A DNA stretch of 44,276 nt from positions 1 through 44,276 of the forward strand of contig JAHEIB010000002.1 of NCBI GenBank assembly GCA_024639645.1. The letters are read 5' to 3'. Source of the DNA: Deltaproteobacteria bacterium (GTDB lineage Bacteria > Desulfobacterota > Desulfobacteria > Desulfobacterales > B30-G6). The position numbers and the translations under genes were made by a program. The notes beneath the pieces were generated by a model that had not been told where the DNA came from, ran no database searches, and saw only the letters and a program-made list of their open reading frames with translations. Of this stretch, positions 3,759 to 17,513 are shown in pieces. Within the stretch, counting starts at the first letter, position 1, and the number at the start of each line of letters is the position of its first letter.

Positions 3759-3766
3759 TATGCACC

Positions 3767-3790: not shown

Positions 3791-3792
3791 CT

Positions 3793-3842: not shown

Positions 3843-3862
3843 CTAATGCCCGCTTTGAAAAA

Positions 3863-5614
3863 TCACAGTATCACCCTGGGAGCATCTATGATCCTGGCTC
3901 TCAGGTATTCTCCCAATGTTTTGGCCTGAGGGTCACTCCTCAGGGATGCAGCCACTCCGTCACCCAGCAAGCCTTTGATATAAAAATTCAAAGCCAGGAG
4001 ATTGGGCAGTTCATATCGCTCGATCTCAAAACCCACCAGATCTTTGAGAAGTATTTTCAAACGTTCCACCGACAAAAATTCCCGTAAAAATGCATATGCA
4101 TCCGGCGTCTTTGCCCAGACACCCAGATTGGCATTTCCGCCTTTGTCACCAGAGCGTGTGGCAAACAATGCCCCAAAAGGTACTGAAACGGTTTCGCCCT
4201 GCGGAACCGGTGGCATCGGTCTTGGTTGAAGCGACGCGTCATCCAGGGATTCTCCCTGAGTCAAGGCTTTCACCACAATCTCTTGATCGTCGACAAAAAC
4301 ATGCTGTTGGATGTGTTTGTTCGACACCAGTGCCGGCCAGTGCATAATGGCTGGAACACCTTTGGTGGGGGGGGCTGTGGCTGTAAAACCGGGGATGTTT
4401 GCCAGAGCCAACTCCACAAGTTTTGAAGAAAACAGGGCCACCTTTTTAGGATCCGGATCCATGACCGATAGTCGCAGATGTGCAAAGGCCTCTTCATTGG
4501 TTGATGGATTTTCTTTTTCCGAGCGAATGAGCTGTACATCCACCACCGAAAACAGTTTTTTTCCACCCAGGCTGTCAAAGAGGGCCTCTGTGACGATCTG
4601 TGCCTTTTTGTCGATGTCGAGTCCTGTCAAAATGATGGTCATGCTGTTACGGTAGCCCCCCAGGTTGTTGATGCAGACCTTGGTGGTTTGGGTGGGGGGT
4701 TCCCCTTTGACGCCTTGAATCCGAACCCGGTGGGTATCTTCCTGAAAAATATCGATGGTGTCGAACCGGGCGGCAACGTCCGGCGTCAGATACCTGGGTT
4801 CCCGAACTTCATACAGCAGTTGAGCGGTGACCGTTCCAACAGAGACAAGCCCGCCGGTGTTGGGATGCTTGGTAATAATTGAAGATCCGTCCTTTTCAAG
4901 CTCTGCAATGGGAAAGCCTACATTTTTAAAAGAAGGTACCTCATCAATAAAAGCGTAATTGCCGCCGGTTGCTTGGGCGCTGCACTCGATCACATGACCG
5001 GCCACCGCCGCGCCTGCCAGGGCATCCCAGTCTGATTTTTTCCATTTGAATTTCCAGGCCGCGGGCCCCATGACCAGTGCTGCATCGGCAATACGTCCCC
5101 CAACGACGATGTCTGCGTCATGATTGAGCGCCTCCACAATCCCCCAGCAACCCAGATACGCATTGGCTGAAATCGTCTGCGCCTTGGCATCTTTCAAGGG
5201 AATCCCCTTGTCCATGTGGGTGAAAGGTTCGCCTTTGTCTTGAAGATCCTGCAGTCTCTGCATCAGGTTGTCCCCCTCGATATAGGCAATTTTGGGGTGA
5301 AGCCCCAACGTTTCCGCTAGCTTCTCGAGTTCTTGGGCAAGTGACCCTGGGTTGAGACCCCCTGCATTGGCAACAACCTTTATACGCCTGTCAAGGCATT
5401 CTCCCATGACAACTTCCATCTGCTTTAAAAATGTCGTTACATAACCGGCATTGGGGTCCTTGAACTGCTTGCGAAGCAGAATGGCCATGGTCAGTTCGGC
5501 CAGGTAATCACCGGTCAAAAAATGGATGGGGCCGCCCTGAACCATCTCCTGTGCCGCAGAAAATCTGTCACCAAAAAAACCGCTGCAGTTGGCAATGATT
5601 AATTTCTCGTTCAT
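3863..5614 (-). CDS. AtuA-like acyclic-terpene-utilisation family protein (DUF1446 with a DUF4387-like C-terminal domain)
   Basis: Taken from ORF 3863..5677, with the start moved to ATG 5614 (MNEKLIIANCSGFFGDR), which is preceded by AAGGAAAG. The N-terminus IANCSGFFGDR...FLTGDYLAELTM is characteristic of DUF1446. The C-terminal roughly 100 aa (SGDKGGNANLGVW...LNFYIKGLLG) resemble DUF4387. Confidence 0.8.
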   Translation of the reverse strand: MNEKLIIANCSGFFGDRFSAAQEMVQGGPIHFLTGDYLAELTMAILLRKQFKDPNAGYVTTFLKQMEVVMGECLDRRIKVVANAGGLNPGSLAQELEKLAETLGLHPKIAYIEGDNLMQRLQDLQDKGEPFTHMDKGIPLKDAKAQTISANAYLGCWGIVEALNHDADIVVGGRIADAALVMGPAAWKFKWKKSDWDALAGAAVAGHVIECSAQATGGNYAFIDEVPSFKNVGFPIAELEKDGSSIITKHPNTGGLVSVGTVTAQLLYEVREPRYLTPDVAARFDTIDIFQEDTHRVRIQGVKGEPPTQTTKVCINNLGGYRNSMTIILTGLDIDKKAQIVTEALFDSLGGKKLFSVVDVQLIRSEKENPSTNEEAFAHLRLSVMDPDPKKVALFSSKLVELALANIPGFTATAPPTKGVPAIMHWPALVSNKHIQQHVFVDDQEIVVKALTQGESLDDASLQPRPMPPVPQGETVSVPFGALFATRSGDKGGNANLGVWAKTPDAYAFLREFLSVERLKILLKDLVGFEIERYELPNLLALNFYIKGLLGDGVAASLRSDPQAKTLGEYLRARIIDAPRVIL

Positions 5615-5810
5615 AAGTATCTTTCCTTTATATAGTCGGCCATAGCTATCTATAAGCAATAGGCTGTCATTAGGCAATCTGACGATTGCCGACTCTTAGC
5701 TGTTTGCTCTTAGCCAGTAGCTATTCACCGGCCAACAGCTAAGAGCCAAAAGCGTAGACGTTTACCCTCCAACCCTTTTATCCCCCTCGGACCCTGGAAC
5801 CCTGATCCTT

Positions 5811-6581
5811 TTATTTCCCCTTAAACTTAGGTTTGCGCTTCTCTATAAATGCCGTGATTCCCTCCACAGCATCCTGGGTTGACACCACATCTACCAGTTT
5901 TTCGCTCAGGTAATCGACGGCCTCGTTCAGGGGCATATCCGACATGTGATGAAAAGCCTCTTTGCCGAGTCTCAACCCAATGGGACTCTTTGCAATCAAC
6001 GCCCCCAAAATCCGGTCAACGCTTTCATCCAGCTTTTCAAAAGGAACGACCCGGGTGATAAGACCCATTTCAAGGGCTTCCTGCGCCGTGAGCTTTTCCC
6101 CCAGAAGCACCATTTCCATACCTTTCTTTTTCATCACATTCCTGAAAATCAAGGCACCGATCATCATAGGGAACAAGCCCACATTGACCTCGGGGGTCCC
6201 GAATTTAGCCGTCTCCCTTGCCACCACAATGTCGCAGGCCAGCATGAACCCCATACCCCCTGCCAGGCAGTACCCATTGACCCTTGCAACCGTCGGTTTG
6301 GGGTAAGCCACCATGCGTTTCAAAAGATCTGCATAGCGGCTGAAAGAGTCCTTGCCCTCCTCAGTGGCAGCGCCCCCAAGGTCAGCCCCGGAGCAAAAAG
6401 ATTTGTCACCTGCGCCGGTCACCATGATCGCCCGGACATGATCATCGGTTTCCGCTCGATCCAGGCAATCCATGAACTGCGCAATTACCTGGGGTGTCAG
6501 GGAGTTTCGTTGCTTTTCACGATTGATGGTCAGCATTGCAACATGATTTTCAACTTGATACAGAAGTGGATTTTCCGTCAT
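5811..6581 (-). CDS. enoyl-CoA hydratase/isomerase (crotonase) family protein
   Basis: Taken from ORF 5811..6650, with the start moved to ATG 6581 (MTENPLLYQVENHVAMLTINR). It has the oxyanion-hole motif GAGDKSFCSGADL and the C-terminal EGITAFIEKRKPKFKG. Confidence 0.9.
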   Translation of the reverse strand: MTENPLLYQVENHVAMLTINREKQRNSLTPQVIAQFMDCLDRAETDDHVRAIMVTGAGDKSFCSGADLGGAATEEGKDSFSRYADLLKRMVAYPKPTVARVNGYCLAGGMGFMLACDIVVARETAKFGTPEVNVGLFPMMIGALIFRNVMKKKGMEMVLLGEKLTAQEALEMGLITRVVPFEKLDESVDRILGALIAKSPIGLRLGKEAFHHMSDMPLNEAVDYLSEKLVDVVSTQDAVEGITAFIEKRKPKFKGK

Positions 6582-7048
6582 AATTGATTCCCCATGGTTT
6601 AGTAATTTATTTAAAGCCATAAGCTTTAAGCCGTATGCAGTAAGCCGCATATAGCTTGAATGTCAATTTTTAGGTTTCACCCTTGTTCGAGCGAGATGGA
6701 TGATCCAATGGCGATTTGCGCTGTTTGAGCCAATTAGGGCTCTTTATATCAGTGCATGTTACGAGTCTGACCGCCATGACCTCGCCAAGACAGGCAGTCT
6801 CATCCATACCTGCCGTGTTTCAAAAGTCAAGCCCCAATAAATTCGTGTTGGGAATTTATCAGACACGTCCTTGTCTCTTTCATGGAGGAGAAATTACCGG
6901 ACCTGGGGTTATCCACAAGCACCTGCGAAAAACCAATTCCAAATCCTTTGTATTTGCTATCCCATTGAGAGTGTGCTTAACTTTTACCTAAGATGAGCGT
7001 TTCAAATTTTAAGAATATAAGATAAAAATTATTCCAAAGGATTCAATC

Positions 7049-8299
7049 ATGAAAGATGTTGTTATTGCATCAGCATGCAGGACGGCCATCGGCGCATTCG
7101 GCGGAACCTTGCGGGACACGATCGCCTCGGAAATTGCCAGGGTTACCATGCAGGAAGCCATAAATCGGGCCGGTATCGATCCTGCAACCATCGATGATGT
7201 GCGATATGGCTGCTGCCTGGAGCCGGTAGACACATTGAATGTCGCCCGTACAGCTGCCCTGCTTGCAGGTATACCCGACACTGTTCCCGCCGTAACCATC
7301 AACCGTGTATGTATTTCGAGTATGGAAGCGACCATCTCCGGAATGGCCATGATACAGGCCGGCATGGCAGATATTATTCTTTCCGGGGGTGTGGAGCACA
7401 TGTCCGGGGTCCCATATGTCGTGCCGGCTGCACGTTGGGGATGCCGGCTGCAGGATCAGGTCTTTGTGGATGCACTGATTCGAAGTCTCCATTGTGGCTC
7501 CCATGTGATACCCCATCCTGAAGATGGCCCGGTAAATGCGGAAGCCCCCCCCTTGAGCTATTTTAAGGGAAAACCTTATATCATGGGCCATACAGCGGAG
7601 TTTGTTGCCCAACAGTATGGTATCGCCCGGGAAGAAATGGATGAAGTGGCCCTCAGGAGCCATAATAACGTAGAGCGGGCCACCCGGGACGGCTCTTACA
7701 AGGAAGAAATCGTACCCATGGAAATTCCCCAACGAAAAAAAGAACCCGTTCTATTTGACAAGGACGAACACTTTAGACCCGGGATGACCATGGAACAGCT
7801 CCAGAAGCTGCCACCGGCCTTTATCCCCAAAACAGGCAAGGTTACGGCTGGAAACGCGAGCGGTATCAATGATGGGTCGGCAGGAATGGTGATTATGTCT
7901 GCTGAAAAAGCCGCGGCCCTCAATATAAGACCCCTGGCAAAAATCAAGGCCATTGGAAAGGGAGGTTGTCATCCCTCGGTAATGGGCATGTCACCTGTTC
8001 CGGCCGTTCAGAACCTGATGACACGCAGTGGCTTGAAAATTGAGGATTTCGAGCTGGTTGAAGTAAACGAGGCATTTGCCGCCCAGTATATTGGCTGTGA
8101 AAGAGAGCTGGGATTGAACCGTGAAATTACGAATGTCAACGGGTCGGGAATCGGTCTTGGTCACCCGGTGGGTGCCACTGGCGCCCGTATCATCGTTTCC
8201 CTGATCCATGCCCTGAAACAGCGTGGAAAAACACTGGGGCTGGCCACCCTCTGCGGCGGCGGCGGTGTGTCTATGGCATGTGCGATCGAGATGGTGTAA
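7049..8299 (+). CDS. acetyl-CoA C-acyltransferase (thiolase)
   Basis: 416 aa with the nucleophile Cys context INRVCISSMEA and C-terminal NVNGSGIGLGHPVGATGARI and LCGGGG motifs. It lies divergent from the crotonase operon. Confidence 0.92.
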   Translation: MKDVVIASACRTAIGAFGGTLRDTIASEIARVTMQEAINRAGIDPATIDDVRYGCCLEPVDTLNVARTAALLAGIPDTVPAVTINRVCISSMEATISGMAMIQAGMADIILSGGVEHMSGVPYVVPAARWGCRLQDQVFVDALIRSLHCGSHVIPHPEDGPVNAEAPPLSYFKGKPYIMGHTAEFVAQQYGIAREEMDEVALRSHNNVERATRDGSYKEEIVPMEIPQRKKEPVLFDKDEHFRPGMTMEQLQKLPPAFIPKTGKVTAGNASGINDGSAGMVIMSAEKAAALNIRPLAKIKAIGKGGCHPSVMGMSPVPAVQNLMTRSGLKIEDFELVEVNEAFAAQYIGCERELGLNREITNVNGSGIGLGHPVGATGARIIVSLIHALKQRGKTLGLATLCGGGGVSMACAIEMV

Positions 8300-8812
8300 A
8301 GAGAGGGTTGCAGGGCGTGAGGGGGATACGAGGGTTGGAGGGTGGCTGACAGCTTTAAGCGGACAGCGGCATCCCGGCGTCCCAGCAGAAAAGAAGGTTT
8401 CTCGGGTTTTTTTGCTTGATGAAACGGAAACAAGTTGAATGCTCTATACCGACGGCTGTAAGCAACACAATAAACCCAAAGAGTTCAATGAACGCGACAA
8501 CCATGATTGCCCTGCCTGATCTATTGTTAATTTTATTAAATACATTTTAATTGTTTCATTGTATTTTCTATCTTTTATTGACATTTTCATCAAATTAGAT
8601 CAAGGTTGCCTTAATTGTTCTACAAACCGCGTGATCGGCACGCGGTTTTGAACCTGAACGTGCGGAGACGTGCCGTCTCCTTTGTCTTTCCACCATTGGG
8701 GGGAAATCCAAGCCACCCGTTTCACGGGTGGTAGTTGACTTAGGATTTGGAACCATCTATTCCCGTTTTAGGCGACAGGGTTGCGTCCCTATAAATCGTA
8801 AACGATTTTATT

Positions 8813-9256
8813 ATGAAAATAGATACAATCACCATCGATATCATCAAACACCTTCAGGACGGTCGGAAATCATTGAAGAAAATCGCGGATGATTTATCCA
8901 TTTCAGAAAACACCGTCCGATCAAGGGTCAACCAGCTAAAAAATGAAGACATTTTATCCATATCCGGCCTGGTGCGTCCAGAAGCTATCCCCGGCCATTG
9001 CTCGGTAATGGTGGGTGTCAAACTTTCAACCATGCATCTGGTTAAAAAGGGTGAAGAATTCAGCCAGCTGAAAGGTGTTGTTTCCGTTAGCGTTGTAACA
9101 GGTCGTTTTGACTTGATCTTGATTGTATTGCTCAAAGATAACTATGGCCTGCTTGAATTTTATACCGAGCAGGTTGCGCGGATAAAAGATGTCCAATCGG
9201 TTGAAACATTTGTGGTTTATAAAAGCTATGGCTTGAAGCTTCCCTATATTCTATAG
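8813..9256 (+). CDS. Lrp/AsnC-family transcriptional regulator
   Basis: 147 aa with an N-terminal HTH (DIIKHLQDGRKSLKKIADDLSISENTVRSRVNQL) and a C-terminal RAM/AsnC_trans_reg-like domain. It is the first gene of the gcv operon. Confidence 0.85.
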   Translation: MKIDTITIDIIKHLQDGRKSLKKIADDLSISENTVRSRVNQLKNEDILSISGLVRPEAIPGHCSVMVGVKLSTMHLVKKGEEFSQLKGVVSVSVVTGRFDLILIVLLKDNYGLLEFYTEQVARIKDVQSVETFVVYKSYGLKLPYIL

Positions 9257-9286
9257 CCGGACTATTTCATGAAAAGGAGCTGATTC

Positions 9287-11935
9287 ATGAACAATCTTTT
9301 CAAAACAATCTTGCATGATCGCCATGTCGACCTGGGTGCCCAGATGGTTGAATTCGGGGGCTGGGTTATGCCCATACAGTATCAACAGGGAATCGTCCGG
9401 GAACACCTTGCCACAAGACGGTATGCCGGTCTTTTTGATGTATCGCATATGGGCCGATTCACCTTCCAGGGGCAGGATGCCCTGACGTTTTTACAGCATG
9501 TCCTTTCCAACAATGCCTCTGGGCTCGAGGAAGGAGAAAGCCAGTATACCTTAATTCCAAATGACAGCGGCGGCGCCATCGACGATGCCTATCTTTACCG
9601 CTTTTATGCCGATGAATACCTGCTGGTGGTCAATGCCGGCAACCGTCTCAAAGATTGGGATCACTTTCAGGCCTGCCTGCCTGATTTCAAAAATGTCACC
9701 ATGGCGGACAAAACTGAAGACATCTCCATGCTGAGCCTGCAGGGACCGACATCCAAAGATATTCTCCAAAATATAATAGATACCGGTGCGCTTCCGGAAC
9801 CCATGCGAAACCATCTCAGCATCACCACCATTCAAAACAAAAAAGTGCTTATCGCACGTACAGGATACACCGGAGAGCCCCTCTGTTTTGAGCTCTTTAT
9901 CGACAGCACCGACACACCCCCTATCTGGGACCTGTTGATCGATCAGGGAGCCCATCCTGTTGGACTGGGTGCGCGGGATACCCTCAGACTTGAAGCAGGT
10001 CTTCCCTTGTACGGACACGAACTGGGAATGGATCCGGACAACAAGGAAATTCCGATCTACGCGTCACCCCTATCACGATTTGCAGTAAGTCTGTCCCCCT
10101 TGAAAAAAGATTTTATCGGTCGAAAAGCCCTTGAAAAACAATTTCAAGCCTTTAAAAAAATTGTCGATCAAGACTATTCTGCCATACATGATCTCCCGCG
10201 CTGCATTATGCCGGTGGCATTGAAAAAGAAGGGCGTGGCGCGCGCCGGATACAACGTTTTTCAGGAGAATCGTCATGTCGGATATGTCACCAGCGGCACC
10301 ATGATTCCAAGATGGAAAATCGAGGGGGAGGGCATCTTCTCAAAATTGACCGAGAGCCACGATCTCAGGGGAATCTGTCTGGCACTGTTAGACAGTACCC
10401 TGATGGAGGGTGATGACATCGACATCGAGATCCGGGGAAAACAGGCGCCGGCAGTTGTCGTTCCCTTTCACATGCGGAGCGAGGCGCCGCCTTTTGCCAG
10501 GTCCATCCCCTGGGACAAGATCGGACAGGAAAAAAAATCACCAGGAGAAGATGATATTTCCGGCAACGTTCAATCTCTGTTAAAAAAATCGATTCGAAAT
10601 ACAAAATGGCGCCAAGAGGAATGCATCAATCTCATCCCTTCCGAACAAACCCAGTCCGAACTCGTACGCTTGCTCTCCATCATGGACCCCTGTGGACGCT
10701 ATGCCGAGCACAAACAGGTGGGTGCCTTCAGTGAAGCCGAGGTTTTTTATTACCAGGGAACCGATTTTATAGCCGAAGTCGAGGCAAAACTCGAAACAGA
10801 GTTAAAAAAGTTCTTTGGGTGTCAGCAGGTGGAAACCCGTCTGGTTTCAGGGCAGATGGCCAACATGGCTCTGTTCAGCGCCCTGGTTGACTATATCAAT
10901 CGGAGCGACCGGAAAAATGAACAGCGACGGCTCAGGAAGGTGATGAACAACCATATCATCAAGGGCGGCCATTTGAGCGCACAGCCAATGGGGGCATTGA
11001 GAGACTTTGTGGCCCGGGACCCTTTGTCTGAGAAACCGGCGGTGATCAATTTTCCGGTCCTGCCTGAAAACCCCTATAAAATTGACATCGATGCCTGTGA
11101 GACTCTCATTCAAAAACACGCGCCGGAGCTGTTTATCTTTGGTAAAAGCATGGTTCTCCACAGGGAGCCCCTTGCAGAAGTGCGCCGGATAATCGATGGT
11201 CTGGGTATGGATTCGATTATCATGTACGACATGGCACATGTTCTGGGTCTGGTGGGCCCCCACTTTCAAGAACCTTTTAAAGAAGGTGCGGATTTTATAA
11301 CGGGGTCTACCCATAAAACCTATTTCGGAACACAGCGGGGTATCATCGGCACAGATATCAAGGATGAAGACCCCCGGTTCGAACTATGGGAAGCCGTCAA
11401 ACGCCGGTCATTTCCTGGAAGTGTCAGCAATCATCACCTGGGAACACTTTTGGGGCTTCTGATGGCGGCCTATGAGATGAACCATTTCAAAGACAGTTAC
11501 CCTAAAAAAGTGATCGACAACGCCAGTGTCTTTGCCAAAGCGCTGAACGACTGCGGGTTAAGCGTGGCCGGCGATCCGGAAATCTCTTTTACAGAAACCC
11601 ACCAAGTTATACTCAATGTGGGCTATGCAAAGGGACCTGAGATTGCCAGGAAACTGGAAGAGAACAATCTCATCGTCAACTACCAGGCAGCTCCGGTGGA
11701 AGAAGGCTTTACGGCATCCGGATCCCTTCGCATGGGTGTACAGGAAATGACGCGTTTTGGTATGGAGGCTGCGGATTTCGAAGAACTGGCACAATTGTTC
11801 AAGGATGTTCTGGTGGATAACCGAACCGTCAAGGAAGCCGTTATAGCATTTCGCAAACGTTTTCTTGAGATGAAGTTCTGTTTTACGGCGGATCAGATTG
11901 GAGACAATATTCAGAAGTTGCACGAGCTGCTATAA
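9287..11935 (+). CDS. gcvT: bifunctional fusion: aminomethyltransferase (glycine-cleavage T protein) N-terminal half joined to a serine hydroxymethyltransferase-like C-terminal half
   Basis: 882 aa with an AGGAG RBS. Residues 1 to about 405 carry GcvT hallmarks (GGWVMPIQY, LFDVSHMGRF, GARDTLRLEAGLPLYGHEL). Residues about 440-882 carry SHMT hallmarks (WRQEECINLIPSEQ compared with RQ..LELIASEN, the PLP-lysine motif GSTHKTYFGTQRG, and SVSNHHLG). There is no in-frame stop between the halves. Confidence 0.85.
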   Translation: MNNLFKTILHDRHVDLGAQMVEFGGWVMPIQYQQGIVREHLATRRYAGLFDVSHMGRFTFQGQDALTFLQHVLSNNASGLEEGESQYTLIPNDSGGAIDDAYLYRFYADEYLLVVNAGNRLKDWDHFQACLPDFKNVTMADKTEDISMLSLQGPTSKDILQNIIDTGALPEPMRNHLSITTIQNKKVLIARTGYTGEPLCFELFIDSTDTPPIWDLLIDQGAHPVGLGARDTLRLEAGLPLYGHELGMDPDNKEIPIYASPLSRFAVSLSPLKKDFIGRKALEKQFQAFKKIVDQDYSAIHDLPRCIMPVALKKKGVARAGYNVFQENRHVGYVTSGTMIPRWKIEGEGIFSKLTESHDLRGICLALLDSTLMEGDDIDIEIRGKQAPAVVVPFHMRSEAPPFARSIPWDKIGQEKKSPGEDDISGNVQSLLKKSIRNTKWRQEECINLIPSEQTQSELVRLLSIMDPCGRYAEHKQVGAFSEAEVFYYQGTDFIAEVEAKLETELKKFFGCQQVETRLVSGQMANMALFSALVDYINRSDRKNEQRRLRKVMNNHIIKGGHLSAQPMGALRDFVARDPLSEKPAVINFPVLPENPYKIDIDACETLIQKHAPELFIFGKSMVLHREPLAEVRRIIDGLGMDSIIMYDMAHVLGLVGPHFQEPFKEGADFITGSTHKTYFGTQRGIIGTDIKDEDPRFELWEAVKRRSFPGSVSNHHLGTLLGLLMAAYEMNHFKDSYPKKVIDNASVFAKALNDCGLSVAGDPEISFTETHQVILNVGYAKGPEIARKLEENNLIVNYQAAPVEEGFTASGSLRMGVQEMTRFGMEAADFEELAQLFKDVLVDNRTVKEAVIAFRKRFLEMKFCFTADQIGDNIQKLHELL

Positions 11936-12038
11936 GCGATAAGCCATAAGCTGTAAGCGGCTTATTGCTTATAGCTTACAGCTCATTACTTAAAACCTAA
12001 CACCTAACACCTAAAACAACTTTTCACAGGAGACTGCC

Positions 12039-12437
12039 ATGAAAGAATTGAGTGAACTTAATTTTCCTGACGATGTCATGTATTCCGATGATCACGAATG
12101 GACAAAAATGGAAAACGACGAAGCCGTCATCGGCATAAGCGATTATGCGCAGGATCAGCTGGGAGACATCGTTTTTGTCGAACTGCCCCAGGTTGGCGAA
12201 ACATTTGAAAAAGGCGCCGAGTTCGGTACGGTGGAATCCGTCAAGGCCGTATCCGAGCTATTCCTGCCTGTAGGTGGCGAAATTATTGCTGTCAATGACG
12301 CCCTGGAAGACACGCCGGAACTGGTCAACAACGAACCCTACACCGGAGGGTGGATGCTCCGGATCAAGCTCAGCGATAAATCCGAATTGGATCAGTTGAT
12401 GAATAAAAGCGCTTATCTCGAATCATTGAAAGGGTGA
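12039..12437 (+). CDS. gcvH: glycine cleavage system H protein
   Basis: 132 aa with the lipoyl-lysine motif GTVESVKAVSEL and a typical N-terminus (YSDDHEW) and C-terminus. Confidence 0.93.
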   Translation: MKELSELNFPDDVMYSDDHEWTKMENDEAVIGISDYAQDQLGDIVFVELPQVGETFEKGAEFGTVESVKAVSELFLPVGGEIIAVNDALEDTPELVNNEPYTGGWMLRIKLSDKSELDQLMNKSAYLESLKG

Positions 12438-12441
12438 TAGC

Positions 12442-13776
12442 ATGAGATATTTACCACACACGCAAGAAGATATCGCCGATATGCTGAAGACCATCGGTGT
12501 TGATAGCCTGAATGACCTGTTTACAACCATTCCGGAAGATTGCCGCAGAAAAACGGACCTCAAACTGCCCAAGGCCAAGACCGAGTGGGAACTGAACCAC
12601 CATATGAGCGGACTGGCTGCCCAGATGGCGGTCTGCCCGGATTACACGGTGTTCATCGGTGCCGGCAGTTATGATCATTATATACCGGAAGTGGTCAAAC
12701 AGCTTCTGAGCCGCTCCGAGTTTTACACGGCCTATACCCCTTATCAACCGGAAATGAGCCAGGGCACCCTTCAAGCCATTTATGAATACCAGACGCTTAC
12801 CACACGTCTTTTGGGATTGGACGTGGCCAATGCCTCCATGTATGACGGGGCTTCGTCTCTGGCGGAAGCGCTCCTGATGTCCATCCGTATTACCCGGCGG
12901 AAAAAAGTGGCTATCTCCCGTCTCATCCATCCCCTGTATCGACAGGTGGTTCGAACATACTTCGCTCCCACCGGCTTCGAAGTAGTGGAACTCCCCGTTT
13001 CAGATTCCGGCCAAACAGATATGACCGGCCTGGAAGATATGGAGACGTTTGCCTGCGTAGCCGTTCAATCACCCAACTATTTTGGTTGTATTGAAAACCT
13101 GGCCGCCTTTGAGGAAAAAATCCACTCGGACAGCAAAACACTCTTCATCGTCTCCTTCACAGAACCCCTTGCCTATGGTGTATTAAAAAACCCGGGCAGC
13201 CTCGGTGCAGACATTGCCTGCGGTGAGGGACAGAGTCTGGGCATCCCCAGATCTTTCGGCGGCCCCGGTCTTGGCATGTTTGCAGCCAAAAAGGGCTATA
13301 TGAGAAATATGCCCGGCAGGCTCGTCGGCCAGACATTGGATATTGAAGGCAAGCGAGGTTTTGTCTTGACCCTCTCCACCAGGGAGCAACATATTCGCCG
13401 GGAAAAAGCTACGTCGAACATCTGTTCTAATCAAGGCTTGTGCGCCACCGCCGCGGCCATGTATATGGCAACGCTGGGGGGCACCGGCATTCGAAAGCTG
13501 GCCGCATTAAATCACGACAAAGCCGCTTATCTGCAAGGTCTACTTAAAAATGCCGGGTTTGAAATCCCATTTGATACACCCGTATTCAACGAGTTTGTGG
13601 TCAAATTTCCAAAAGACTTTAAGAAAACCTATACAAACCTGCTATCCAAAAAAATAGTGCCTGGACTATCACTGACACCGGATTATCCCGAGTTTCCAGA
13701 TCACTATCTATTGTGTGCCACAGAAACCATGGACAAGGCGGATATGGACCTGTTGGTCAAGGAGGTGACATCATGA
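12442..13776 (+). CDS. gcvPA: glycine dehydrogenase (aminomethyl-transferring) subunit 1
   Basis: 444 aa with the N-terminus MRYLPHT..D...ML and the motif YTPYQPEMSQGTLQAIYEYQT. It starts 4 nt after gcvH. Confidence 0.93.
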   Translation: MRYLPHTQEDIADMLKTIGVDSLNDLFTTIPEDCRRKTDLKLPKAKTEWELNHHMSGLAAQMAVCPDYTVFIGAGSYDHYIPEVVKQLLSRSEFYTAYTPYQPEMSQGTLQAIYEYQTLTTRLLGLDVANASMYDGASSLAEALLMSIRITRRKKVAISRLIHPLYRQVVRTYFAPTGFEVVELPVSDSGQTDMTGLEDMETFACVAVQSPNYFGCIENLAAFEEKIHSDSKTLFIVSFTEPLAYGVLKNPGSLGADIACGEGQSLGIPRSFGGPGLGMFAAKKGYMRNMPGRLVGQTLDIEGKRGFVLTLSTREQHIRREKATSNICSNQGLCATAAAMYMATLGGTGIRKLAALNHDKAAYLQGLLKNAGFEIPFDTPVFNEFVVKFPKDFKKTYTNLLSKKIVPGLSLTPDYPEFPDHYLLCATETMDKADMDLLVKEVTS

Positions 13777-15227
13777 AGGAAGGCGTCGGAACCACGGGTC
13801 TGATACTCAATGAGCCCTTTTTATGGGAAAAAGGCAAAAAAGGACGAATGGGCTTCTCTTTGCCCAACAACGATGTTCCGTCATCCCCTCTGGTTGCGGA
13901 GCTGCTCGGAGAAGGACCTGATTTTCCAGATCTGAGCGAAGTCGATGTGGTGAGACATTACACCCGTCTTTCCACCTGGAACTTCGGGGTGGACAGCGGC
14001 ATGTACCCCCTGGGATCCTGCACCATGAAGTACAATCCCAAAACCAATGAACGCCAGGCATCGCTCCCGGGTCTGGCACAGGCCCATCCACTGTTACCGA
14101 CCGAATTGGCGCAGGGTGCGCTCAAAATCATGTTTGATCTTCAGGAGCATCTGGCCGAAATAACCGGACTGCCGGCCGTCTCACTACAGCCTGCCGCTGG
14201 TGCCCAGGGTGAACTTACCGGCATGCTTCTGTTTTACGCTTTTCACATGATGAACAAAGAAAGACGAACCAAAATCCTCATACCGGACACAGCCCATGGT
14301 ACCAACCCTGCGAGTGCCGCCCTGTGTGGCTTCCGATCGGTTCCCGTTGCATCCAATGCTCAGGGAGTTCTTGCACCGGATGATGTGGAGGCCCTCATGG
14401 ATGAGGACACGGCCGGCATCATGGTCACGAATCCCAACACACTGGGTCTCTTTGAAGAACATATCAAACAGATATCTGAAATCGTGCATACCAAAGGCGG
14501 TCTTGTATACGCAGATGGCGCCAACATGAACGCTGTAATGGGTATGGTGAACATGGCCGACTTGGGTGTGGATGTCCTGCACCTCAATCTTCACAAAACA
14601 TTTTCAACCCCCCATGGCGGCGGTGGACCCGGCAGTGGTCCGGTTTGCGTCACTAAAAAACTCGAACCCTTTTTGCCGGTACCCAGGGTGATGCATGTTA
14701 AGAACCGTTATGAACTCTCTTATGATTTCCCGGAATCCATTGGCAAGGTTCACGCATTTTATGGAAATTTCGGAATCCAAATTCGTGCCTATTCCTATAT
14801 TCTCTCTATGGGCGACCAGTTGAAAACAGCAAGTCAGCTGGCGGTGCTGAACGCCAATTATTTGAAAGAAAGCCTACGGGATATTTTTCACCTGCCCTAT
14901 GACAAACCTTGTATGCATGAGTGCGTCTTCACGGACAAACATCAACAAGCATTCAAGGTGAGCACACTGGACATTGCCAAGCGACTGATAGATTATGGGT
15001 TTCATCCCCCCACCATATACTTCCCTCTCGTGGTTCAGGGTGCGTTGATGATGGAGCCAACGGAAACAGAATCCAAGGAGAATCTGGATGATTTTATCGA
15101 AGCCCTGAGACAGATTGTTCAAGAGGCCAAGGATAATCCGGAGCTGCTGTTGCAGGCCCCCATCAAAACCAAGGTACGGCGGCTGGACGAAACCATGGCC
15201 GCACGAAAACCCTGTCTGGCGGGTTAA
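13773..15227 (+). CDS. gcvPB: glycine dehydrogenase (aminomethyl-transferring) subunit 2
   Basis: Taken from ORF 13713..15227, with the start moved to ATG 13773 (AAGGAGG RBS; ATGA overlap with the gcvPA stop). It has the PLP-lysine motif LNLHKTFSTPHGGGGPG. Confidence 0.93.
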   Translation: MKEGVGTTGLILNEPFLWEKGKKGRMGFSLPNNDVPSSPLVAELLGEGPDFPDLSEVDVVRHYTRLSTWNFGVDSGMYPLGSCTMKYNPKTNERQASLPGLAQAHPLLPTELAQGALKIMFDLQEHLAEITGLPAVSLQPAAGAQGELTGMLLFYAFHMMNKERRTKILIPDTAHGTNPASAALCGFRSVPVASNAQGVLAPDDVEALMDEDTAGIMVTNPNTLGLFEEHIKQISEIVHTKGGLVYADGANMNAVMGMVNMADLGVDVLHLNLHKTFSTPHGGGGPGSGPVCVTKKLEPFLPVPRVMHVKNRYELSYDFPESIGKVHAFYGNFGIQIRAYSYILSMGDQLKTASQLAVLNANYLKESLRDIFHLPYDKPCMHECVFTDKHQQAFKVSTLDIAKRLIDYGFHPPTIYFPLVVQGALMMEPTETESKENLDDFIEALRQIVQEAKDNPELLLQAPIKTKVRRLDETMAARKPCLAG

Positions 15228-15301
15228 CCCGGATATTTTTGTCATATGATGATAAGCAGAAAACCACCCCTTGTGTTTTATGACAGATTCGGGTCAACCG
15301 G

Positions 15302-16015
15302 ATGGTAAAGCATCAGCCTCCCACCCGGACCTTGGCCTGCTGGTGCCTGGATCTCAAGACAATGGCTTATCAGGAGGCCTGGGAATTCCAACAAGCCGTG
15401 GTCAGGGCTAAAATTGAAAAGAATTTTTCTCAGGATGTCATTCTGTTCGTGGAACACGCTCCGGTTTTTACACTGGGCCGCAGGGGGGGGCTTGAAAACC
15501 TGACCGTTTCCGAAGCGTTTTTGGAAGCATCAGGCATCCAGGTGATACAGGTGGAAAGAGGGGGGGACATTACCTACCATGGTCCCGGCCAGCTGGTGGT
15601 CTACCCTGTCCTGGATCTGGACCGTCAACGACTCGGTATCACTGAACTGGTTTTCATGCTCGAAGAAATCATGATCCGCGTTTCCAAAACCCTCGGCGTC
15701 CATGCGGTGCGAAATCCCAGGAATCGTGGTGTCTGGGTTGGTAAAAAAAAGATTGGCAGCATCGGACTTGCTGTCCGAAAGGGATTCAGCTTTCATGGAA
15801 TGGCGCTGAACGTCAACCTTTCTATGACGCCTTTCGAATGGATTCACCCCTGTGGTCTTGCCAATGTCTCCATGACGTCCCTCGAAAAAGAATTATCTGA
15901 AAGACCTTCCATGCAGGCGGTACAGAAACTGACCAAACAACATTTAAAAGATGTGTTCGGGCGGTCTTTAGAGGCGATTACGCGAGAGCAATTGGATAGG
16001 TTGATAAAGTTGTAA
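15302..16015 (+). CDS. lipB: lipoyl(octanoyl) transferase
   Basis: 237 aa with the motifs RGGDITYHGPGQLVVYP, GKKKIGSIGLAV and HPCG (catalytic Cys). Confidence 0.88.
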   Translation: MVKHQPPTRTLACWCLDLKTMAYQEAWEFQQAVVRAKIEKNFSQDVILFVEHAPVFTLGRRGGLENLTVSEAFLEASGIQVIQVERGGDITYHGPGQLVVYPVLDLDRQRLGITELVFMLEEIMIRVSKTLGVHAVRNPRNRGVWVGKKKIGSIGLAVRKGFSFHGMALNVNLSMTPFEWIHPCGLANVSMTSLEKELSERPSMQAVQKLTKQHLKDVFGRSLEAITREQLDRLIKL

Positions 16016-16194
16016 GCTGCAAGCGATAAGCCGTAAGCTGTTTTCCGTTTACAGCCTTTCCTCGAGCCGTGTCCTGTTATTGGGTTCGTTGGGTTCATTG
16101 CGTTTTTTGGGTTATTATGTTGTCTTCAGCCCTTAGCCCTAAAACCGCTCATGGCTAATCGCTTATGGCTTAAAGCTTAAAGCTCGGAGAAACC

Positions 16195-17061
16195 ATGTCA
16201 CACAAAGTGCTGAAAAAGCCTGCTTGGCTAAAACGGCGGATGACCGCGGGATCGGATTATGAAAAAGTTCGTGCGCTCATCGAAAACTGCCATCTGCACA
16301 CGGTTTGCCAGGAAGCCCATTGCCCCAATATCTGGGAGTGCTTTTCCAGAGAAACGGCCACCTTTCTCATTCTGGGGGACCGTTGTACCCGAAATTGCAG
16401 GTTTTGTGCCGTTGCCCAAGGCCCCCAAGAGCCGCCGGATCCAGAAGAGCCTGACCATGTTGCTTTGGCCGTTCAAGAACTAAAACTGGCCTACGTGGTC
16501 ATCACCTCCGTGACCCGCGATGATTTGCCAGATGGTGGTGCAGGCCATTTTGCAAGGACTATCCAGGCGGTAAGAAACAAATGCCCAGGGGTTGGTATCG
16601 AGGTACTGATTCCAGACTTTAAGGGAAAACGACACGCATGGCAGACCGTCCTTGACGCACGACCTAATGTTTTGAATCACAACATGGAAACCGTCCAGCG
16701 TCTCTACCCGCTGGTTAGACCAGAGGCAGATTACGGTCAATCTTTAGATCTTATCAGGTATGCCGCAAACAACGGGCATGGTATTTCCACAAAATCGGGT
16801 CTGATGCTGGGATTGGGAGAAAGCAATCAAGAAATCGTGACAGCATTTTCAGACCTCATCCGAGCTGGATGTCATATCTTAACCCTGGGTCAATACCTGC
16901 AACCCACCAAAGAACATCTCCCCGTAGATCGATTTGTGCCCCCAGATGCGTTTGATGAACTCAAAAAAATTGCCCTAGAAATGGGTTTCAGCGATGTAGC
17001 CGCAGACCCGTTTGTGCGCAGCTCCTATCGGGCCAAGGAATTATTTAAGGGTAGGTTTTAA
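16195..17061 (+). CDS. lipA: lipoyl synthase (radical SAM)
   Basis: 288 aa with auxiliary-cluster cysteines (CQEAHCPNIWEC), the radical-SAM motif CTRNCRFC and the C-terminal RSSYRA. Confidence 0.93.
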   Translation: MSHKVLKKPAWLKRRMTAGSDYEKVRALIENCHLHTVCQEAHCPNIWECFSRETATFLILGDRCTRNCRFCAVAQGPQEPPDPEEPDHVALAVQELKLAYVVITSVTRDDLPDGGAGHFARTIQAVRNKCPGVGIEVLIPDFKGKRHAWQTVLDARPNVLNHNMETVQRLYPLVRPEADYGQSLDLIRYAANNGHGISTKSGLMLGLGESNQEIVTAFSDLIRAGCHILTLGQYLQPTKEHLPVDRFVPPDAFDELKKIALEMGFSDVAADPFVRSSYRAKELFKGRF

Positions 17062-17513
17062 CTCAACTTTCGAGATTTAGAGCTGTTGTCATAAATATGT
17101 TCCGTTTGACTTCTGGCTGGCGCTTCGGCGGGTGACGGCAAACAGCCGATCGCCTGTTTGAAGCAAATTTGCGATCGTTTAAAAGGCCATGGGGTTGGAT
17201 TCGTTCTATTGTAATCAAACACTGTTAACCAGACAATCGTATCTTAATCTTTTGGCACGGGTGTTCCTTACGAACGCTTATTTGCAAGTTCGAGCGGTTG
17301 TTTGACCTGATTTGCCGAAGCAGTTTCGGATCGTTATTCTGGCAAATGCTATAGATAACGAAAAATAAATAATCCCCCGTCGCTTTGCAAACTCGCCATT
17401 GGGTCACCCATTTCGCTCAATTTATGCTAAAACCCGAAAGTTGAGCTTTAAGCTGTCAGACAAGAAGATTTTTTGAAGAGAAAAACCCAGTATCGCACGT
17501 TCTCATTCGTTTT

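What the first reader, a model, noticed from the sequence alone, without database searches (positions are those of the whole stretch)
9287..11935. In-frame fusion of the glycine-cleavage T protein to an SHMT-like PLP enzyme
One 882-codon ORF joins a complete aminomethyltransferase to a complete serine-hydroxymethyltransferase-like domain that keeps the PLP lysine (GSTHKT). The linker is about 30 aa (APPFARSIPWDKIGQEKKSPGEDDISGNVQ). Between the end of the T domain and the first SHMT motif I see no ATG, GTG or TTG in frame, so the SHMT half cannot be translated on its own. Both activities use 5,10-methylene-THF, so a fusion would hand the C1 unit directly between glycine cleavage or synthesis and serine formation. 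In textbook organisms gcvT and glyA are separate genes. The SHMT half is divergent (archaeal-looking GSTHKTxxGxQxG), so its substrate or pterin specificity may also differ. One caveat: an A8 homopolymer (10530..10537) sits in the linker.
Basis: partly seen in the sequence, partly recalled or inferred. Interest (0 to 1): 0.75.

Follow-up and report, generated by a model that had tools for sequence, protein, structure and literature searches.

The report
Fused glycine-cleavage T protein and SHMT
One real, widely conserved gene joins the folate-dependent T protein of the glycine cleavage system to an archaeal-type serine hydroxymethyltransferase, which probably links glycine breakdown and serine formation in one protein, and databases label it only as "GcvT".

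Summary
Window 9287..11935 (+) is one 882-codon ORF. It carries a full GcvT (above NCBIfam equivalog cut-offs), a conserved 15-aa tail, a variable linker of about 20 aa, and a full SHMT-fold PLP domain.

The A8 run is not a frameshift artefact. At least 76 intact full-length orthologues occur in species-representative genomes, and 120 protein clusters share the architecture. Close relatives break the A-run and keep the frame.

Both halves are under strong purifying selection (dN/dS 0.05-0.12). Every PLP, substrate and catalytic residue of SHMT is invariant. The closest solved relative of the SHMT half is the M. jannaschii enzyme.

Unfused members of the same SHMT clade sit directly downstream of a gcvT gene, and the split falls exactly in the linker. 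gcvT plus this SHMT is therefore a conserved module, fused or adjacent, found in many bacterial phyla and in DPANN archaea.

In the window the gene heads an Lrp, T-SHMT, gcvH, gcvPA, gcvPB, lipB, lipA cluster.

The likely function is a bifunctional enzyme that passes a shared folate between the two sites (2 Gly <-> Ser + CO2 + NH3). That hand-off is inferred, not shown. I found no description in the searchable literature. I rate it a new variant of a known kind, of moderate interest.

The parts
8813..9256 (+). Lrp/AsnC-family transcriptional regulator directly upstream (30-nt gap)
   Evidence: Pfam AsnC_trans_reg plus HTH_AsnC-type. An Lrp homologue lies next to the fusion or its gcv cluster in 11 related loci.
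9274..9279 (+). Shine-Dalgarno-like AAGGAG, 7 nt before the ATG of the fusion
   Evidence: Read directly from the sequence.
9287..11935 (+). Complete gcvT-SHMT fusion ORF (882 aa plus stop)
   Evidence: Full-length orthologues.
9287..10471 (+). T-protein (aminomethyltransferase) half, aa 1-395. It has two insertions relative to B. subtilis GcvT, at about aa 288-303 and 343-360.
   Evidence: NCBIfam TIGR00528 273.9 bits (cut-off 235.85) and PRK00389 322.7 bits (cut-off 300). PDB 1YX2 at 1.1e-59. Foldseek TMt 0.86-0.90 to 1YX2/1WOO. AF2 pLDDT about 90.
9581..9583 (+). Codon of D99, the equivalent of the catalytic Asp97 of E. coli T protein (GGxIDD motif)
   Evidence: Alignment to 3A8I. D99 and D100 are invariant in 61 fusions.
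10472..10516 (+). Conserved C-terminal tail of the T module (aa 396-410, HMRSEAPPFARSIPW), which extends beyond the end of canonical GcvT
   Evidence: R397, E399, A400 and P402 are invariant. dN = 0 at pS 0.2-0.6 against close relatives. The tail is also present at the C-terminus of unfused partner GcvTs. 1YX2 ends about 8 residues after query aa 391.
10517..10576 (+). Variable linker (aa 411-430), which contains the A8 run at 10530-10537
   Evidence: Sequence is poorly conserved, but the length between aa 402 and 438 is nearly constant at 34-36 residues. dN/dS is 0.15-0.5. AF2 pLDDT is 54-58. The A-run is interrupted in L002, L003, L007 and L009 without indels.
10577..11932 (+). Archaeal-type SHMT (PLP fold-type I) half, aa 431-882
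   Evidence: Pfam SHMT. PDB 4BHD/4UQV (M. jannaschii SHMT) at 1.6e-51, against about 1e-20 for bacterial and eukaryotic SHMTs. Foldseek TMt about 0.81. dN/dS 0.05-0.10.
11315..11317 (+). Codon of K677, the PLP Schiff-base lysine (GSTHKT)
   Evidence: Aligns with E. coli K229. Invariant in 76 fusions.
11684..11686 (+). Codon of Q800, which replaces the pterin-contacting Asn347 of E. coli SHMT and is a signature of the clade
   Evidence: Gln in 76 of 76 fusions and in the closest unfused relatives. Asn in M. jannaschii and E. coli.
12039..12437 (+). gcvH (lipoyl carrier H protein)
   Evidence: Pfam GCV_H 2.4e-42.
12442..13776 (+). gcvPA (P protein subunit 1)
   Evidence: Pfam GDC-P 7.5e-131.
13713..15227 (+). 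gcvPB (P protein subunit 2). The mechanical ORF start overlaps gcvPA, so the true start may lie downstream.
   Evidence: Pfam GcvP2_C, GDC-P and Aminotran_5.
15302..16015 (+). Lipoyl/octanoyl transferase (LplA/LipB catalytic domain)
   Evidence: Pfam LplA-B_cat 8.1e-44.
16195..17061 (+). Lipoyl synthase LipA
   Evidence: Pfam Radical_SAM plus LIAS_N.

Best explanation
The ORF encodes a genuine bifunctional protein.

The N-terminal half is the T protein of the glycine cleavage system encoded by the downstream genes (gcvH, gcvPA, gcvPB, lipB, lipA). It takes the aminomethyl group from the lipoyl arm of H protein, releases NH3 and loads the carbon onto tetrahydrofolate as 5,10-CH2-THF.

The C-terminal half is a catalytically competent, archaeal-type, PLP-dependent serine hydroxymethyltransferase. 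It interconverts glycine + CH2-THF and serine + THF.

Because all SHMTs are obligate dimers, the protein most likely forms an SHMT-dimer core with two T domains tethered by flexible linkers of about 20 aa (inferred). The product of one site is the substrate of the other, in both directions. The fusion would therefore create a local folate cycle: 2 Gly + NAD+ <-> Ser + CO2 + NH4+ + NADH. This gives 1:1 stoichiometry and short-range hand-off of CH2-THF and THF (inferred).

The protein belongs to a conserved gcvT/SHMT module that exists either fused or as adjacent, tightly spaced genes.

My confidence by step:
- About 0.9 that it is a real fusion with both halves active.
- About 0.5 that folate hand-off or cycling is the selective reason for the fusion.
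- About 0.75 that THF, rather than another pterin, is the carrier.
For: Shown here:
- Domain calls: the T half is above the GcvT equivalog cut-offs, and the SHMT half is above the Pfam gathering score.
- The catalytic Asp of the T protein is kept.
- The equivalents of E. coli SHMT S35, Y55, E57, Y65, S97, H126, S175, D200, H203, H228, K229 and R363 are invariant in 76 fusions.
- dN/dS is 0.05-0.12 in both halves.
- The predicted folds match T protein and SHMT.
- The SHMT loops with low pLDDT are the active-site loops carrying the residues mapped; in solved SHMTs these lie at the dimer interface (own knowledge). This is as expected for an obligate dimer modelled as a monomer.
- In the window the fusion is the only T-protein gene in the gcvH-PA-PB-lipB-lipA cluster.
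- gcvP genes lie within 8 kb of the fusion in 32 of 80 loci and gcvH in 28. Only one locus (L048) shows a second gcvT there.
- Unfused clade members always follow a gcvT gene. The break falls in the linker, and the T partner keeps the APPYARP tail.
- Neighbours in related loci concern glycine and serine: lpdA, threonine aldolase, SerK-like and SerB-like genes.
Against: - No biochemical data exist for any member.
- The SHMT half is below the NCBIfam bacterial GlyA cut-off (236 vs 335 bits).
- Its closest characterised relative uses H4MPT, not THF (PMC3697235).
- The pterin-contacting Asn347 is replaced by Gln, and K346 by Tyr/Phe.
- About 60% of related loci have no GCS genes within 8 kb, so in some lineages the protein may work apart from a gcv operon.
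- If the pathway runs catabolically (Ser and Gly both donating C1 to THF), the two sites compete for THF and there is nothing to hand over.
- The AF2 monomer gives no confident placement of the linker. The tool returned no coordinates or PAE, so the geometry between the sites is unknown.
Confidence: 0.72

Rival explanations
1. The protein is a true fusion with both activities, but there is no C1 hand-off. It works catabolically: the SHMT half cleaves serine to glycine + CH2-THF, and GCS with the T half cleaves that glycine to CO2 + NH3 + CH2-THF. Both C1 units then leave to the bulk folate pool, for example for oxidation through the methyl branch of the Wood-Ljungdahl pathway in sulfate reducers. 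The fusion would serve only co-expression, stoichiometry or stability.
For: - The gene sits in a glycine-cleavage operon under an Lrp-type regulator, next to catabolic genes for fatty acid and terpene-like substrates.
- A threonine aldolase that supplies glycine lies in the related L081 operon.
- The linker is flexible and poorly conserved.
Against: - The nearly constant linker length suggests a defined physical relationship rather than mere co-expression.
- So do the absolutely conserved T-module tail and the persistence of the tail in unfused neighbours.
- SerK-like and SerB-like genes downstream in five loci point to serine as a pathway intermediate to be passed on, not only degraded to glycine.
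Confidence: 0.25
2. The C-terminal half is not a folate-dependent SHMT. It is either an SHMT-fold enzyme with another reaction (threonine or beta-hydroxy-amino-acid aldolase or transaldolase, alpha-methylserine HMT), or it uses a different C1 carrier such as a methanopterin-like pterin.
For: - It is below the bacterial GlyA cut-off.
- The second-best PDB family is the L-threonine transaldolase 7K34.
- The best PDB relative is H4MPT-dependent (PMC3697235).
- N347 is Gln, K346 is Tyr/Phe and R235 is Gln.
- The clade is separate from M. jannaschii-type SHMTs in the NJ tree.
- The module occurs in DPANN archaea.
Against: - The residues that in E. coli SHMT act on the C1 transfer and contact folate (E57; Y64, which is Tyr in 71 of 76 fusions and Phe in the other 5; Y65; the G125-H126-L127 loop) are kept in the 76 fusions.
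- Many more distant solo homologues have lost E57.
- The domain is covalently or genomically tied to a folate-binding GcvT domain of ordinary bacterial type.
- R235Q and G262G263 to SN are shared with the bona fide SHMT of M. jannaschii.
- Most hosts are bacteria, which normally use THF (established knowledge).
Confidence: 0.12
3. The SHMT half is mainly a structural or dimerisation scaffold (a pseudo-enzyme) for the T protein.
For: One divergent fusion (P0132, 889 aa) has lost the catalytic Lys, E57, H126 and H203 equivalents while keeping an intact T half.
Against: In the window protein and in all 76 genome-derived fusions every catalytic residue is intact. The SHMT half evolves more slowly than the T half: dN/dS 0.05-0.10, and 63-71% vs 55-65% identity across phyla.
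Confidence: 0.03
4. The fusion is an assembly or sequencing artefact at the A8 homopolymer, and gcvT and the SHMT gene are really two genes.
For: One base more or less in the A8 run gives a stop within 12-21 codons. Genuinely split versions of the module exist in other lineages.
Against: - Independent assemblies give the same 882-aa frame at 64-95% identity.
- L002, L003, L007 and L009 lack the homopolymer and have no indel.
- No start codon or RBS is available for a separate SHMT gene. Real split versions do have a stop, a spacer or RBS, and an ATG.
Confidence: 0.01

Closest known systems
Stand-alone glycine cleavage T protein GcvT (B. subtilis 1YX2, T. maritima 1WOO, E. coli 3A8I)
   Same: - Same three-domain fold (TMt 0.85-0.90).
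- 29-35% identity.
- Above the NCBIfam GcvT equivalog cut-off.
- The catalytic Asp is kept.
- Encoded next to gcvH and gcvP.
   Different: - Two insertions in the C-terminal domain.
- A conserved RSEAPPYARP tail beyond the canonical C-terminus.
- Covalent fusion to an SHMT.
Methanocaldococcus jannaschii serine hydroxymethyltransferase (PDB 4BHD/4UQV), H4MPT-dependent archaeal SHMT
   Same: - Best solved relative (1.6e-51, about 32% identity, TMt about 0.81).
- Same GSTHKT motif.
- The same deviations from bacterial SHMT: R235 to Q and G262G263 to SN.
   Different: - The fused clade branches apart from the M. jannaschii-type clade.
- It has Gln for the pterin-contacting Asn347 and Tyr/Phe for K346.
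- It has extra loops (aa 476-486 and about 536-552).
- It is tied to a GcvT.
- Its hosts are mostly bacteria, so THF rather than H4MPT is expected (inference).
Unfused gcvT-SHMT gene pairs of the same clade (L081; L082 Chloroflexota; L083/L084 Nanoarchaeia)
   Same: Same SHMT clade (50-55% identity to each other and to the window's SHMT half). Same gene order. The T partner carries the same APPYARP tail. The bacterial pairs are followed by gcvH-gcvPA-gcvPB.
   Different: Two polypeptides: a stop codon, a 1-19-nt spacer (with an RBS in L082), and an ATG, placed exactly where the fusion has its variable linker.
Functional GDC-SHMT coupling in plant mitochondria (photorespiration; established knowledge, not tested here)
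   Same: Same net chemistry is proposed: 2 Gly -> Ser + CO2 + NH3 + NADH, with CH2-THF made by the T protein and consumed by SHMT.
   Different: In plants the proteins are separate and share a soluble folate pool. Here they are one polypeptide or adjacent genes, and the SHMT is of archaeal type.
GcvT-like folate domains fused to other C1-releasing enzymes (dimethylglycine dehydrogenase/oxidase, sarcosine oxidase alpha subunit, TMAO demethylase)
   Same: They show up as weaker hits of the T half. They are precedents for fusing a T-protein-type folate domain to the enzyme that supplies or uses the C1 unit (established knowledge).
   Different: In those cases the partner is a flavin or metal-dependent demethylase that delivers an iminium or formaldehyde. 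Here the partner is a second folate enzyme, so folate itself would be the shared species.

Membership tests
GcvT, glycine cleavage aminomethyltransferase (NCBIfam TIGR00528 / NF001567) | Score above the curated equivalog/subfamily cut-offs | tested here: met
   TIGR00528 273.9 vs 235.85; NF001567 322.7 vs 300.
GcvT, glycine cleavage aminomethyltransferase (NCBIfam TIGR00528 / NF001567) | Three-domain T-protein fold with folate-binding domain | tested here: met
   Pfam GCV_T plus GCV_T_C. The AF2 model matches 1YX2 and 1WOO with TMt 0.86-0.90.
GcvT, glycine cleavage aminomethyltransferase (NCBIfam TIGR00528 / NF001567) | Catalytic Asp of the GGxIDD motif (E. coli D97) | tested here: met
   D99 aligns with D97 of 3A8I. 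It is invariant in 61 fusions.
GcvT, glycine cleavage aminomethyltransferase (NCBIfam TIGR00528 / NF001567) | Genomic association with gcvH and gcvP | tested here: met
   gcvH, gcvPA and gcvPB lie directly downstream in the window. gcvP genes lie within 8 kb in 32 of 80 related loci and gcvH in 28.
GcvT, glycine cleavage aminomethyltransferase (NCBIfam TIGR00528 / NF001567) | H-protein-dependent aminomethyl transfer to THF | not testable with these tools
   Needs an enzyme assay.
SHMT superfamily (Pfam PF00464) | Score above the Pfam gathering threshold over the whole domain | tested here: met
   112.6 bits vs 27, covering profile positions 10-398 of 399.
SHMT superfamily (Pfam PF00464) | PLP Schiff-base Lys in the (T/S)THK motif, plus the PLP ligands (D200, H126, H203, S175, S97) | tested here: met
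   K677, D648, H562, H651, S621 and S521 are invariant in 76 fusions.
SHMT superfamily (Pfam PF00464) | Amino-acid substrate and catalytic residues (S35, Y55, E57, Y65, R363) | tested here: met
   S452, Y472, E474 and Y489 are invariant in 76 fusions. R815 is Arg in 75 of 76; the other sequence has an alignment gap at that column.
SHMT superfamily (Pfam PF00464) | Canonical pterin contact Asn347 | tested here: not met
   It is Gln800 in all 76 fusions, and the neighbouring K346 is Tyr/Phe. The change is conservative and its consequence is unknown. This residue is a contact, not a family-defining feature.
SHMT superfamily (Pfam PF00464) | Obligate homodimer with a shared active site | not testable with these tools
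   Only a monomer could be modelled. Low pLDDT in the loops carrying the active-site residues (467-491, 557-567, 711-716, 801-811) is consistent with a dimer but is not proof.
Bacterial-type GlyA (NCBIfam NF000586 / PRK00011) | Score above the curated cut-off | tested here: not met
   236.1 bits vs 335. I therefore do not file it as bacterial-type GlyA, and annotation pipelines do not name it SHMT (names listed).
Archaeal H4MPT-dependent SHMT (M. jannaschii type) | Branches within the clade of the characterised archaeal enzymes | tested here: not met
   In the NJ tree the fused and paired clade is sister to, not inside, the clade that holds M. jannaschii SHMT. The tree is distance-based, without support values.
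Archaeal H4MPT-dependent SHMT (M. jannaschii type) | Preference for tetrahydromethanopterin | not testable with these tools
   Needs an assay with THF and H4MPT.

The most novel reading that the evidence does not exclude
The gcvT/archaeal-type-SHMT module, fused or as adjacent genes held together by the conserved APPYARP tail, forms a physical complex that keeps one (polyglutamyl) folate cycling between the T site and the SHMT site. Two glycines would then be converted to serine, or the reverse, without releasing CH2-THF. On this reading it is an ancient module exchanged between DPANN archaea and at least eight bacterial phyla. In anaerobes such as these Desulfobacterales it would be the unrecognised serine-forming or serine-consuming arm of glycine-based C1 metabolism, in some lineages feeding a SerK-like/SerB-like route. 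Its SHMT activity would be systematically missed by genome-based pathway reconstructions.
Probability: 0.3. Interest if true: 0.75.

Novelty: new variant of a known kind. Interest (0 to 1): 0.55.

Why it matters
1. **Annotation.** Every source name listed for a full-length fusion calls it aminomethyltransferase, GcvT or glycine cleavage T protein. Woesearchaeota members are called 'hypothetical protein', one is tagged K00605, and only one 330-aa cluster fragment carries an SHMT name. The SHMT half misses the NCBIfam GlyA cut-off. Metabolic reconstructions of Desulfobacterota, Acidobacteriota, Planctomycetota, Chloroflexota or DPANN MAGs can therefore wrongly score glyA as absent, or overlook this second SHMT. 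That affects calls on the reductive glycine pathway, on serine and glycine auxotrophy, and on C1 flow.

2. **Enzymology.** It is a natural test case for whether folate intermediates are handed between two folate enzymes. Nature supplies matched fused and split versions for comparison.

3. **Evolution.** An archaeal-type SHMT tied to a bacterial-type GcvT, and shared by many bacterial phyla and DPANN archaea, marks inter-domain transfer of a C1 module.

4. **Engineering.** A compact T-SHMT fusion could be useful in synthetic reductive-glycine-pathway strains.

Tried and rejected
- **Frameshift artefact at the A8 run:** rejected.
- **Internal translation start for the SHMT half:** none found.
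- **Glycine riboswitch or any Rfam family in the window:** none at gathering thresholds.
- **Promoter and terminator scan of 8300-17400:** promoter-like counts match the shuffles, and terminator-like sites (18 vs 10.6 +/- 4.0 expected) gave no usable signal.
- **Literature:** ten full-text searches found no description of the architecture. They combined GcvT or aminomethyltransferase, SHMT or glyA, fusion, fused or bifunctional, the Pfam accessions, Desulfobacterales, Woesearchaeota and reductive glycine pathway. Two candidate papers used 'fusion' in an unrelated sense.
- **AF2 monomer:** it gave good domains, but no coordinates or PAE were available, so the distance and orientation of the two folate sites could not be measured.
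- **Foldseek against PDB:** no solved chain covers both halves.
- **Co-occurrence with a canonical glyA or a second gcvT in the same genomes:** not testable.
- **SHMT half as pseudo-enzyme:** rejected for this protein, though one such relative exists.
- **T half as a DmdA-, Tdm- or SoxA-type demethylase domain:** rejected. Those models score far below their cut-offs while the GcvT equivalog passes.


Full report
**1. Observation**

Window 9287..11935 (+) is a single 882-codon ORF. It starts at ATG, with AAGGAG 7 nt upstream.

- Pfam places GCV_T at aa 9-247 (2.9e-77), GCV_T_C at 356-393, and SHMT at 434-837 (2.2e-32, 112.6 bits).
- In NCBIfam the N-terminal half passes both GcvT cut-offs: TIGR00528 at 273.9 vs 235.85, and NF001567 at 322.7 vs 300.
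- The C-terminal half scores 236 bits against bacterial GlyA (NF000586), below its cut-off of 335.
- The A8 run is at 10530-10537. One A fewer or one more gives stops at codons 431 or 422.
- No in-frame ATG, GTG or TTG lies between M396 and L462.

**2. The fusion is real**

- A protein search returned 120 clusters of 880-934 aa with the same three Pfam domains at 64-95% identity. The source names listed for these fusions are aminomethyltransferase, GcvT or glycine cleavage T protein.
- A scan of one genome per GTDB species found 182 stretches that encode relatives. The best 80 were fetched, and 76 of them hold an intact ORF of about 884 aa; the other four hold no intact ORF, and three of them (L038, L064, L068) stop at a contig end.
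- In a DNA alignment of the linker with six close relatives there is no indel. The A-run is broken in four of them, for example GAAAAGGGACC in L003 and GAGCGTGAATC in L007.
- Nei-Gojobori estimates against seven relatives give these dN/dS values:
  - T half: 0.08-0.12.
  - SHMT half: 0.05-0.10.
  - Residues 396-410: dN = 0, despite pS of 0.2-0.6.
  - Residues 411-430: 0.15-0.5.

The first is a strictly conserved tail of the T module (RSEAPPFARSIP). The second is a variable spacer of about 20 aa. The distance between aa 402 and 438 is nearly constant at 34-36 residues in 84 of 88 sequences.

**3. The T half**

- The closest solved proteins are the T proteins of B. subtilis (1YX2, 1.1e-59), T. 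maritima and E. coli.
- D99 aligns with the catalytic D97 of the E. coli enzyme and is invariant.
- Relative to 1YX2 there are two insertions (about aa 288-303 and 343-360), and the tail extends past the canonical C-terminus.

**4. The SHMT half**

- The best solved relative is the M. jannaschii SHMT (4BHD/4UQV, 1.6e-51, 178 bits). Bacterial and eukaryotic SHMTs score 50-80 bits.
- I aligned E. coli GlyA (sequence verified as identical to 1DFO), the M. jannaschii enzyme, 76 fusions and representatives.
- The equivalents of S35, Y55, E57, Y65, S97, H126, S175, D200, H203, H228, K229 and R363 are invariant (R815, the R363 equivalent, is Arg in 75 of 76, with one alignment gap). In the window they are S452, Y472, E474, Y489, S521, H562, S621, D648, H651, H676, K677 and R815.
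- Two deviations are shared with M. jannaschii: R235 to Q, and G262G263 to SN.
- Two deviations are specific to this clade: N347 to Q800 in all 76, and K346 to Y/F799.
- Archaeal SHMTs are reported to be selective for the modified folate of their host (PMC3697235). The carrier used here is therefore an open point. I favour THF, because the partner domain is an ordinary bacterial-type folate-binding GcvT domain and most hosts are bacteria (inference).

**5. Structure**

- AF2 with a 61-sequence alignment gave mean pLDDT 79.6 and pTM 0.71.
- The T half scores about 90 and the linker 54-58.
- In the SHMT half the segments below 50 are exactly the loops that carry the active-site residues and that in known SHMTs are completed by the second subunit.
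- Foldseek matched T proteins (TMt 0.86-0.90) and M. jannaschii SHMT (TMt about 0.81).
- No PDB chain covers both halves.

**6. Distribution and origin**

- By record title, the carriers are mostly Desulfobacterales and other Thermodesulfobacteriota. Others are Acidobacteriota, Planctomycetota/Phycisphaerae, Gemmatimonadota, Woeseiaceae, Thermoleophilia, Anaerolineales, Candidatus Abyssobacteria and bacterium UASB270.
- An exhaustive search of 50%-identity representatives with the SHMT half found further fusions of 873-961 aa, down to 33-38% identity. Pfam confirms GCV_T in all eight such representatives scanned and SHMT in seven; P0200 shows GCV_T only.
- Two of these fusions, and one solo relative, come from Candidatus Woesearchaeota, where they are named 'hypothetical protein'.
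- In a neighbour-joining tree rooted on E. coli GlyA, all fused SHMT halves plus four solo proteins form one clade. That clade is separate from the large clade of solo archaeal-type SHMTs that contains the M. jannaschii enzyme. Gln at the N347 position marks nearly the whole clade. The tree is distance-based without support values, so the topology is indicative only.

**7. Unfused members**

This is the most informative result. Solo members of the clade on long contigs were looked up in their genomic context.

| Locus | Arrangement |
|---|---|
| L081 | gcvT 4738-5997, SHMT 6001-7413, then gcvH, gcvPA, gcvPB, a threonine aldolase, a Pyr_redox_2/Pyr_redox_dim flavoprotein of L-protein type (460 aa, Pfam hits only) and an LplA-type ligase |
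| L082 (Chloroflexota) | gcvT 4743-5981, SHMT 6001-7395, then gcvH, gcvPA, gcvPB |
| L083/L084 (Nanoarchaeia) | gcvT and SHMT 1 nt apart, with no other GCS genes nearby |

In all of them the SHMT gene lies immediately downstream of a gcvT gene. The T proteins end ...APPYARPLLFKE*...APPYARPVS* and ...SPYARPVIHPEAR*. The SHMTs begin at the N-terminal helix, so the break lies precisely in the variable linker. L082 has an AAAGGAGA ribosome-binding site in the spacer.

gcvT plus this SHMT is therefore a conserved two-part module. It has been fused or split more than once, since solos nest among fusions. The conserved tail belongs to the module whether or not it is fused, which suggests a docking role (inference).

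**8. Context**

In the window the order is:
- Lrp/AsnC regulator (8813-9256)
- the fusion
- gcvH (12039-12437)
- gcvPA (12442-13776)
- gcvPB (13713-15227)
- an LplA/LipB-type transferase (15302-16015)
- lipA (16195-17061)

There is no second gcvT and no L-protein gene in the 44 kb.

Among the 80 related loci:
- gcvP genes lie within 8 kb in 32 and gcvH in 28, either co-directional or divergent.
- lipB is present in 20 and lipA in 15.
- Only L048 shows an additional, unrelated gcvT (431 aa, no tail) in that cluster.

Other recurrent neighbours:
- Dihydrolipoyl dehydrogenase directly upstream (L066, L078).
- A class I/II aminotransferase adjacent in about 8 loci.
- In five loci, a distant homologue of archaeal ADP-dependent serine kinase SerK (E 4.7e-18, well below its cut-off) directly downstream. 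In four of them a SerB-like ACT-HAD phosphatase follows.
- A threonine aldolase in L081.

Where recurrent neighbours could be assigned a substrate, they concern glycine, serine or lipoate.

**9. Mechanism**

Shown: both domains are complete, have intact active sites, are under purifying selection, and are linked to GCS genes.

Inferred:
- The protein is the T protein of the local GCS and also an SHMT.
- It dimerises through the SHMT half.
- The two sites exchange CH2-THF and THF, giving 2 Gly + NAD+ <-> Ser + CO2 + NH4+ + NADH.

The argument for hand-off has two parts. First, it is the only arrangement in which one site's product is the other's substrate in both directions. Second, evolution has kept the two proteins physically or translationally tied, with a fixed-length tether and an invariant tail.

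The main rival is a purely catabolic arrangement. Serine and glycine would both donate C1 to the bulk folate pool, and fusion would bring only stoichiometry. I cannot exclude it.

**10. Comparison with what is known, and novelty**

Both enzyme families are textbook. The chemistry equals the GDC-SHMT coupling of plant mitochondria, where the proteins are separate. T-protein-like folate domains are known fused to dimethylglycine or sarcosine oxidases and dehydrogenases and to TMAO demethylase (hits).

I found no paper describing a GcvT-SHMT fusion or a dedicated gcvT-SHMT gene pair in ten full-text searches. That library lacks most subscription journals, so absence is not proof. The sequences themselves are public.

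I class it as a new variant of a known kind. It is not surprising chemically. It is notable for four reasons: its breadth, its archaeal-type SHMT, the fused and split module, and the fact that annotation hides the SHMT activity.

**11. Verdict**

| Item | Assessment |
|---|---|
| Observation | confirmed |
| Real bifunctional fusion | about 0.9 |
| Folate hand-off as its purpose | about 0.5 |
| Interest | 0.55 |

Noticed in passing
window 11932-11986; also 1104-1150, 2469-2521, 6613-6645, 16013-16038 with 16154-16179, 21359-21397, 32921-32939, 33232-33292: A family of mostly intergenic (one site, 6613-6645, lies inside the ECH ORF 5811-6650), REP-like palindromes built from tandem 7-nt units (xxTAAGC) on one arm and their complement on the other. 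One sits directly after the fusion's stop codon and folds at -26.3 kcal/mol (z = -3.8). TAAGCNNTAAGC with up to 1 mismatch occurs 38 times against 1.6 expected. It may be a terminator, an mRNA-stabilising hairpin or a mobile REP element.
   Followed up: partly
protein P0132 (889-aa fusion from the representative library): A divergent GcvT-SHMT fusion whose SHMT half has lost the Schiff-base Lys (THK to AHH), E57 (to T), H126 (GGH to GGL) and H203 (to Q). Its T half looks intact. It is a possible pseudo-enzyme that retains only a structural role.
   Followed up: partly
L053 10694-12841, L066 10796-13001, L075 5587-7750, L078 10684-12640, L069 10755-11675: A 293-306-aa protein lies directly downstream of the fusion in five related loci. 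It is distantly similar to archaeal ADP-dependent L-serine kinase SerK (E 4.7e-18, far below cut-off). In four of the loci an ACT-ACT-HAD SerB-like phosphatase follows. This hints at a serine/phosphoserine route attached to the module.
   Followed up: partly
L015-L017, L023, L049, L059, L074, L077 (next to the fusion); L081 10732-11796: A class I/II aminotransferase of unassigned specificity lies adjacent to the fusion in Acidobacteriota, Planctomycetota and Thermoleophilia loci. A GntG-family low-specificity threonine aldolase sits inside the split-module gcv operon of L081.
   Followed up: partly
window 12039-17061, compared with L066 6530-7966, L078 6558-7964 and L081 11918-13300: The window's gcv cluster, and the whole 44 kb, lacks an L-protein (dihydrolipoyl dehydrogenase) gene. 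In several related loci lpdA (TIGR01350, 502 bits) lies directly upstream of the fusion or inside the cluster.
   Followed up: partly
window 36417-37853 (-): A protein of the MttB (trimethylamine methyltransferase) superfamily, 478 aa, Pfam 3.7e-89. Relatives without pyrrolysine are known as glycine betaine or other quaternary-amine methyltransferases (own knowledge). That could connect to glycine and C1 metabolism, but the gene lies 24 kb from the fusion.
   Followed up: no
window 2595-8299 and 17514-18332: The fusion operon is flanked by a cluster of acyl-CoA dehydrogenase, AtuA-family protein, enoyl-CoA hydratases and thiolase. Parts of this flank recur in the closest relatives: the AtuA-family gene in L001-L009 and the thiolase in L001-L006.
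   Followed up: no
window 13713-13776: The mechanically listed gcvPB ORF starts at a GTG 64 nt inside gcvPA. The real start is probably further downstream, or the two genes overlap.
   Followed up: no
window 1169-2383 (-), 23408-24667 (-), 30619-31284 (+): Three sizeable ORFs (404, 419 and 221 aa) have no Pfam match at E <= 1e-5.
   Followed up: no
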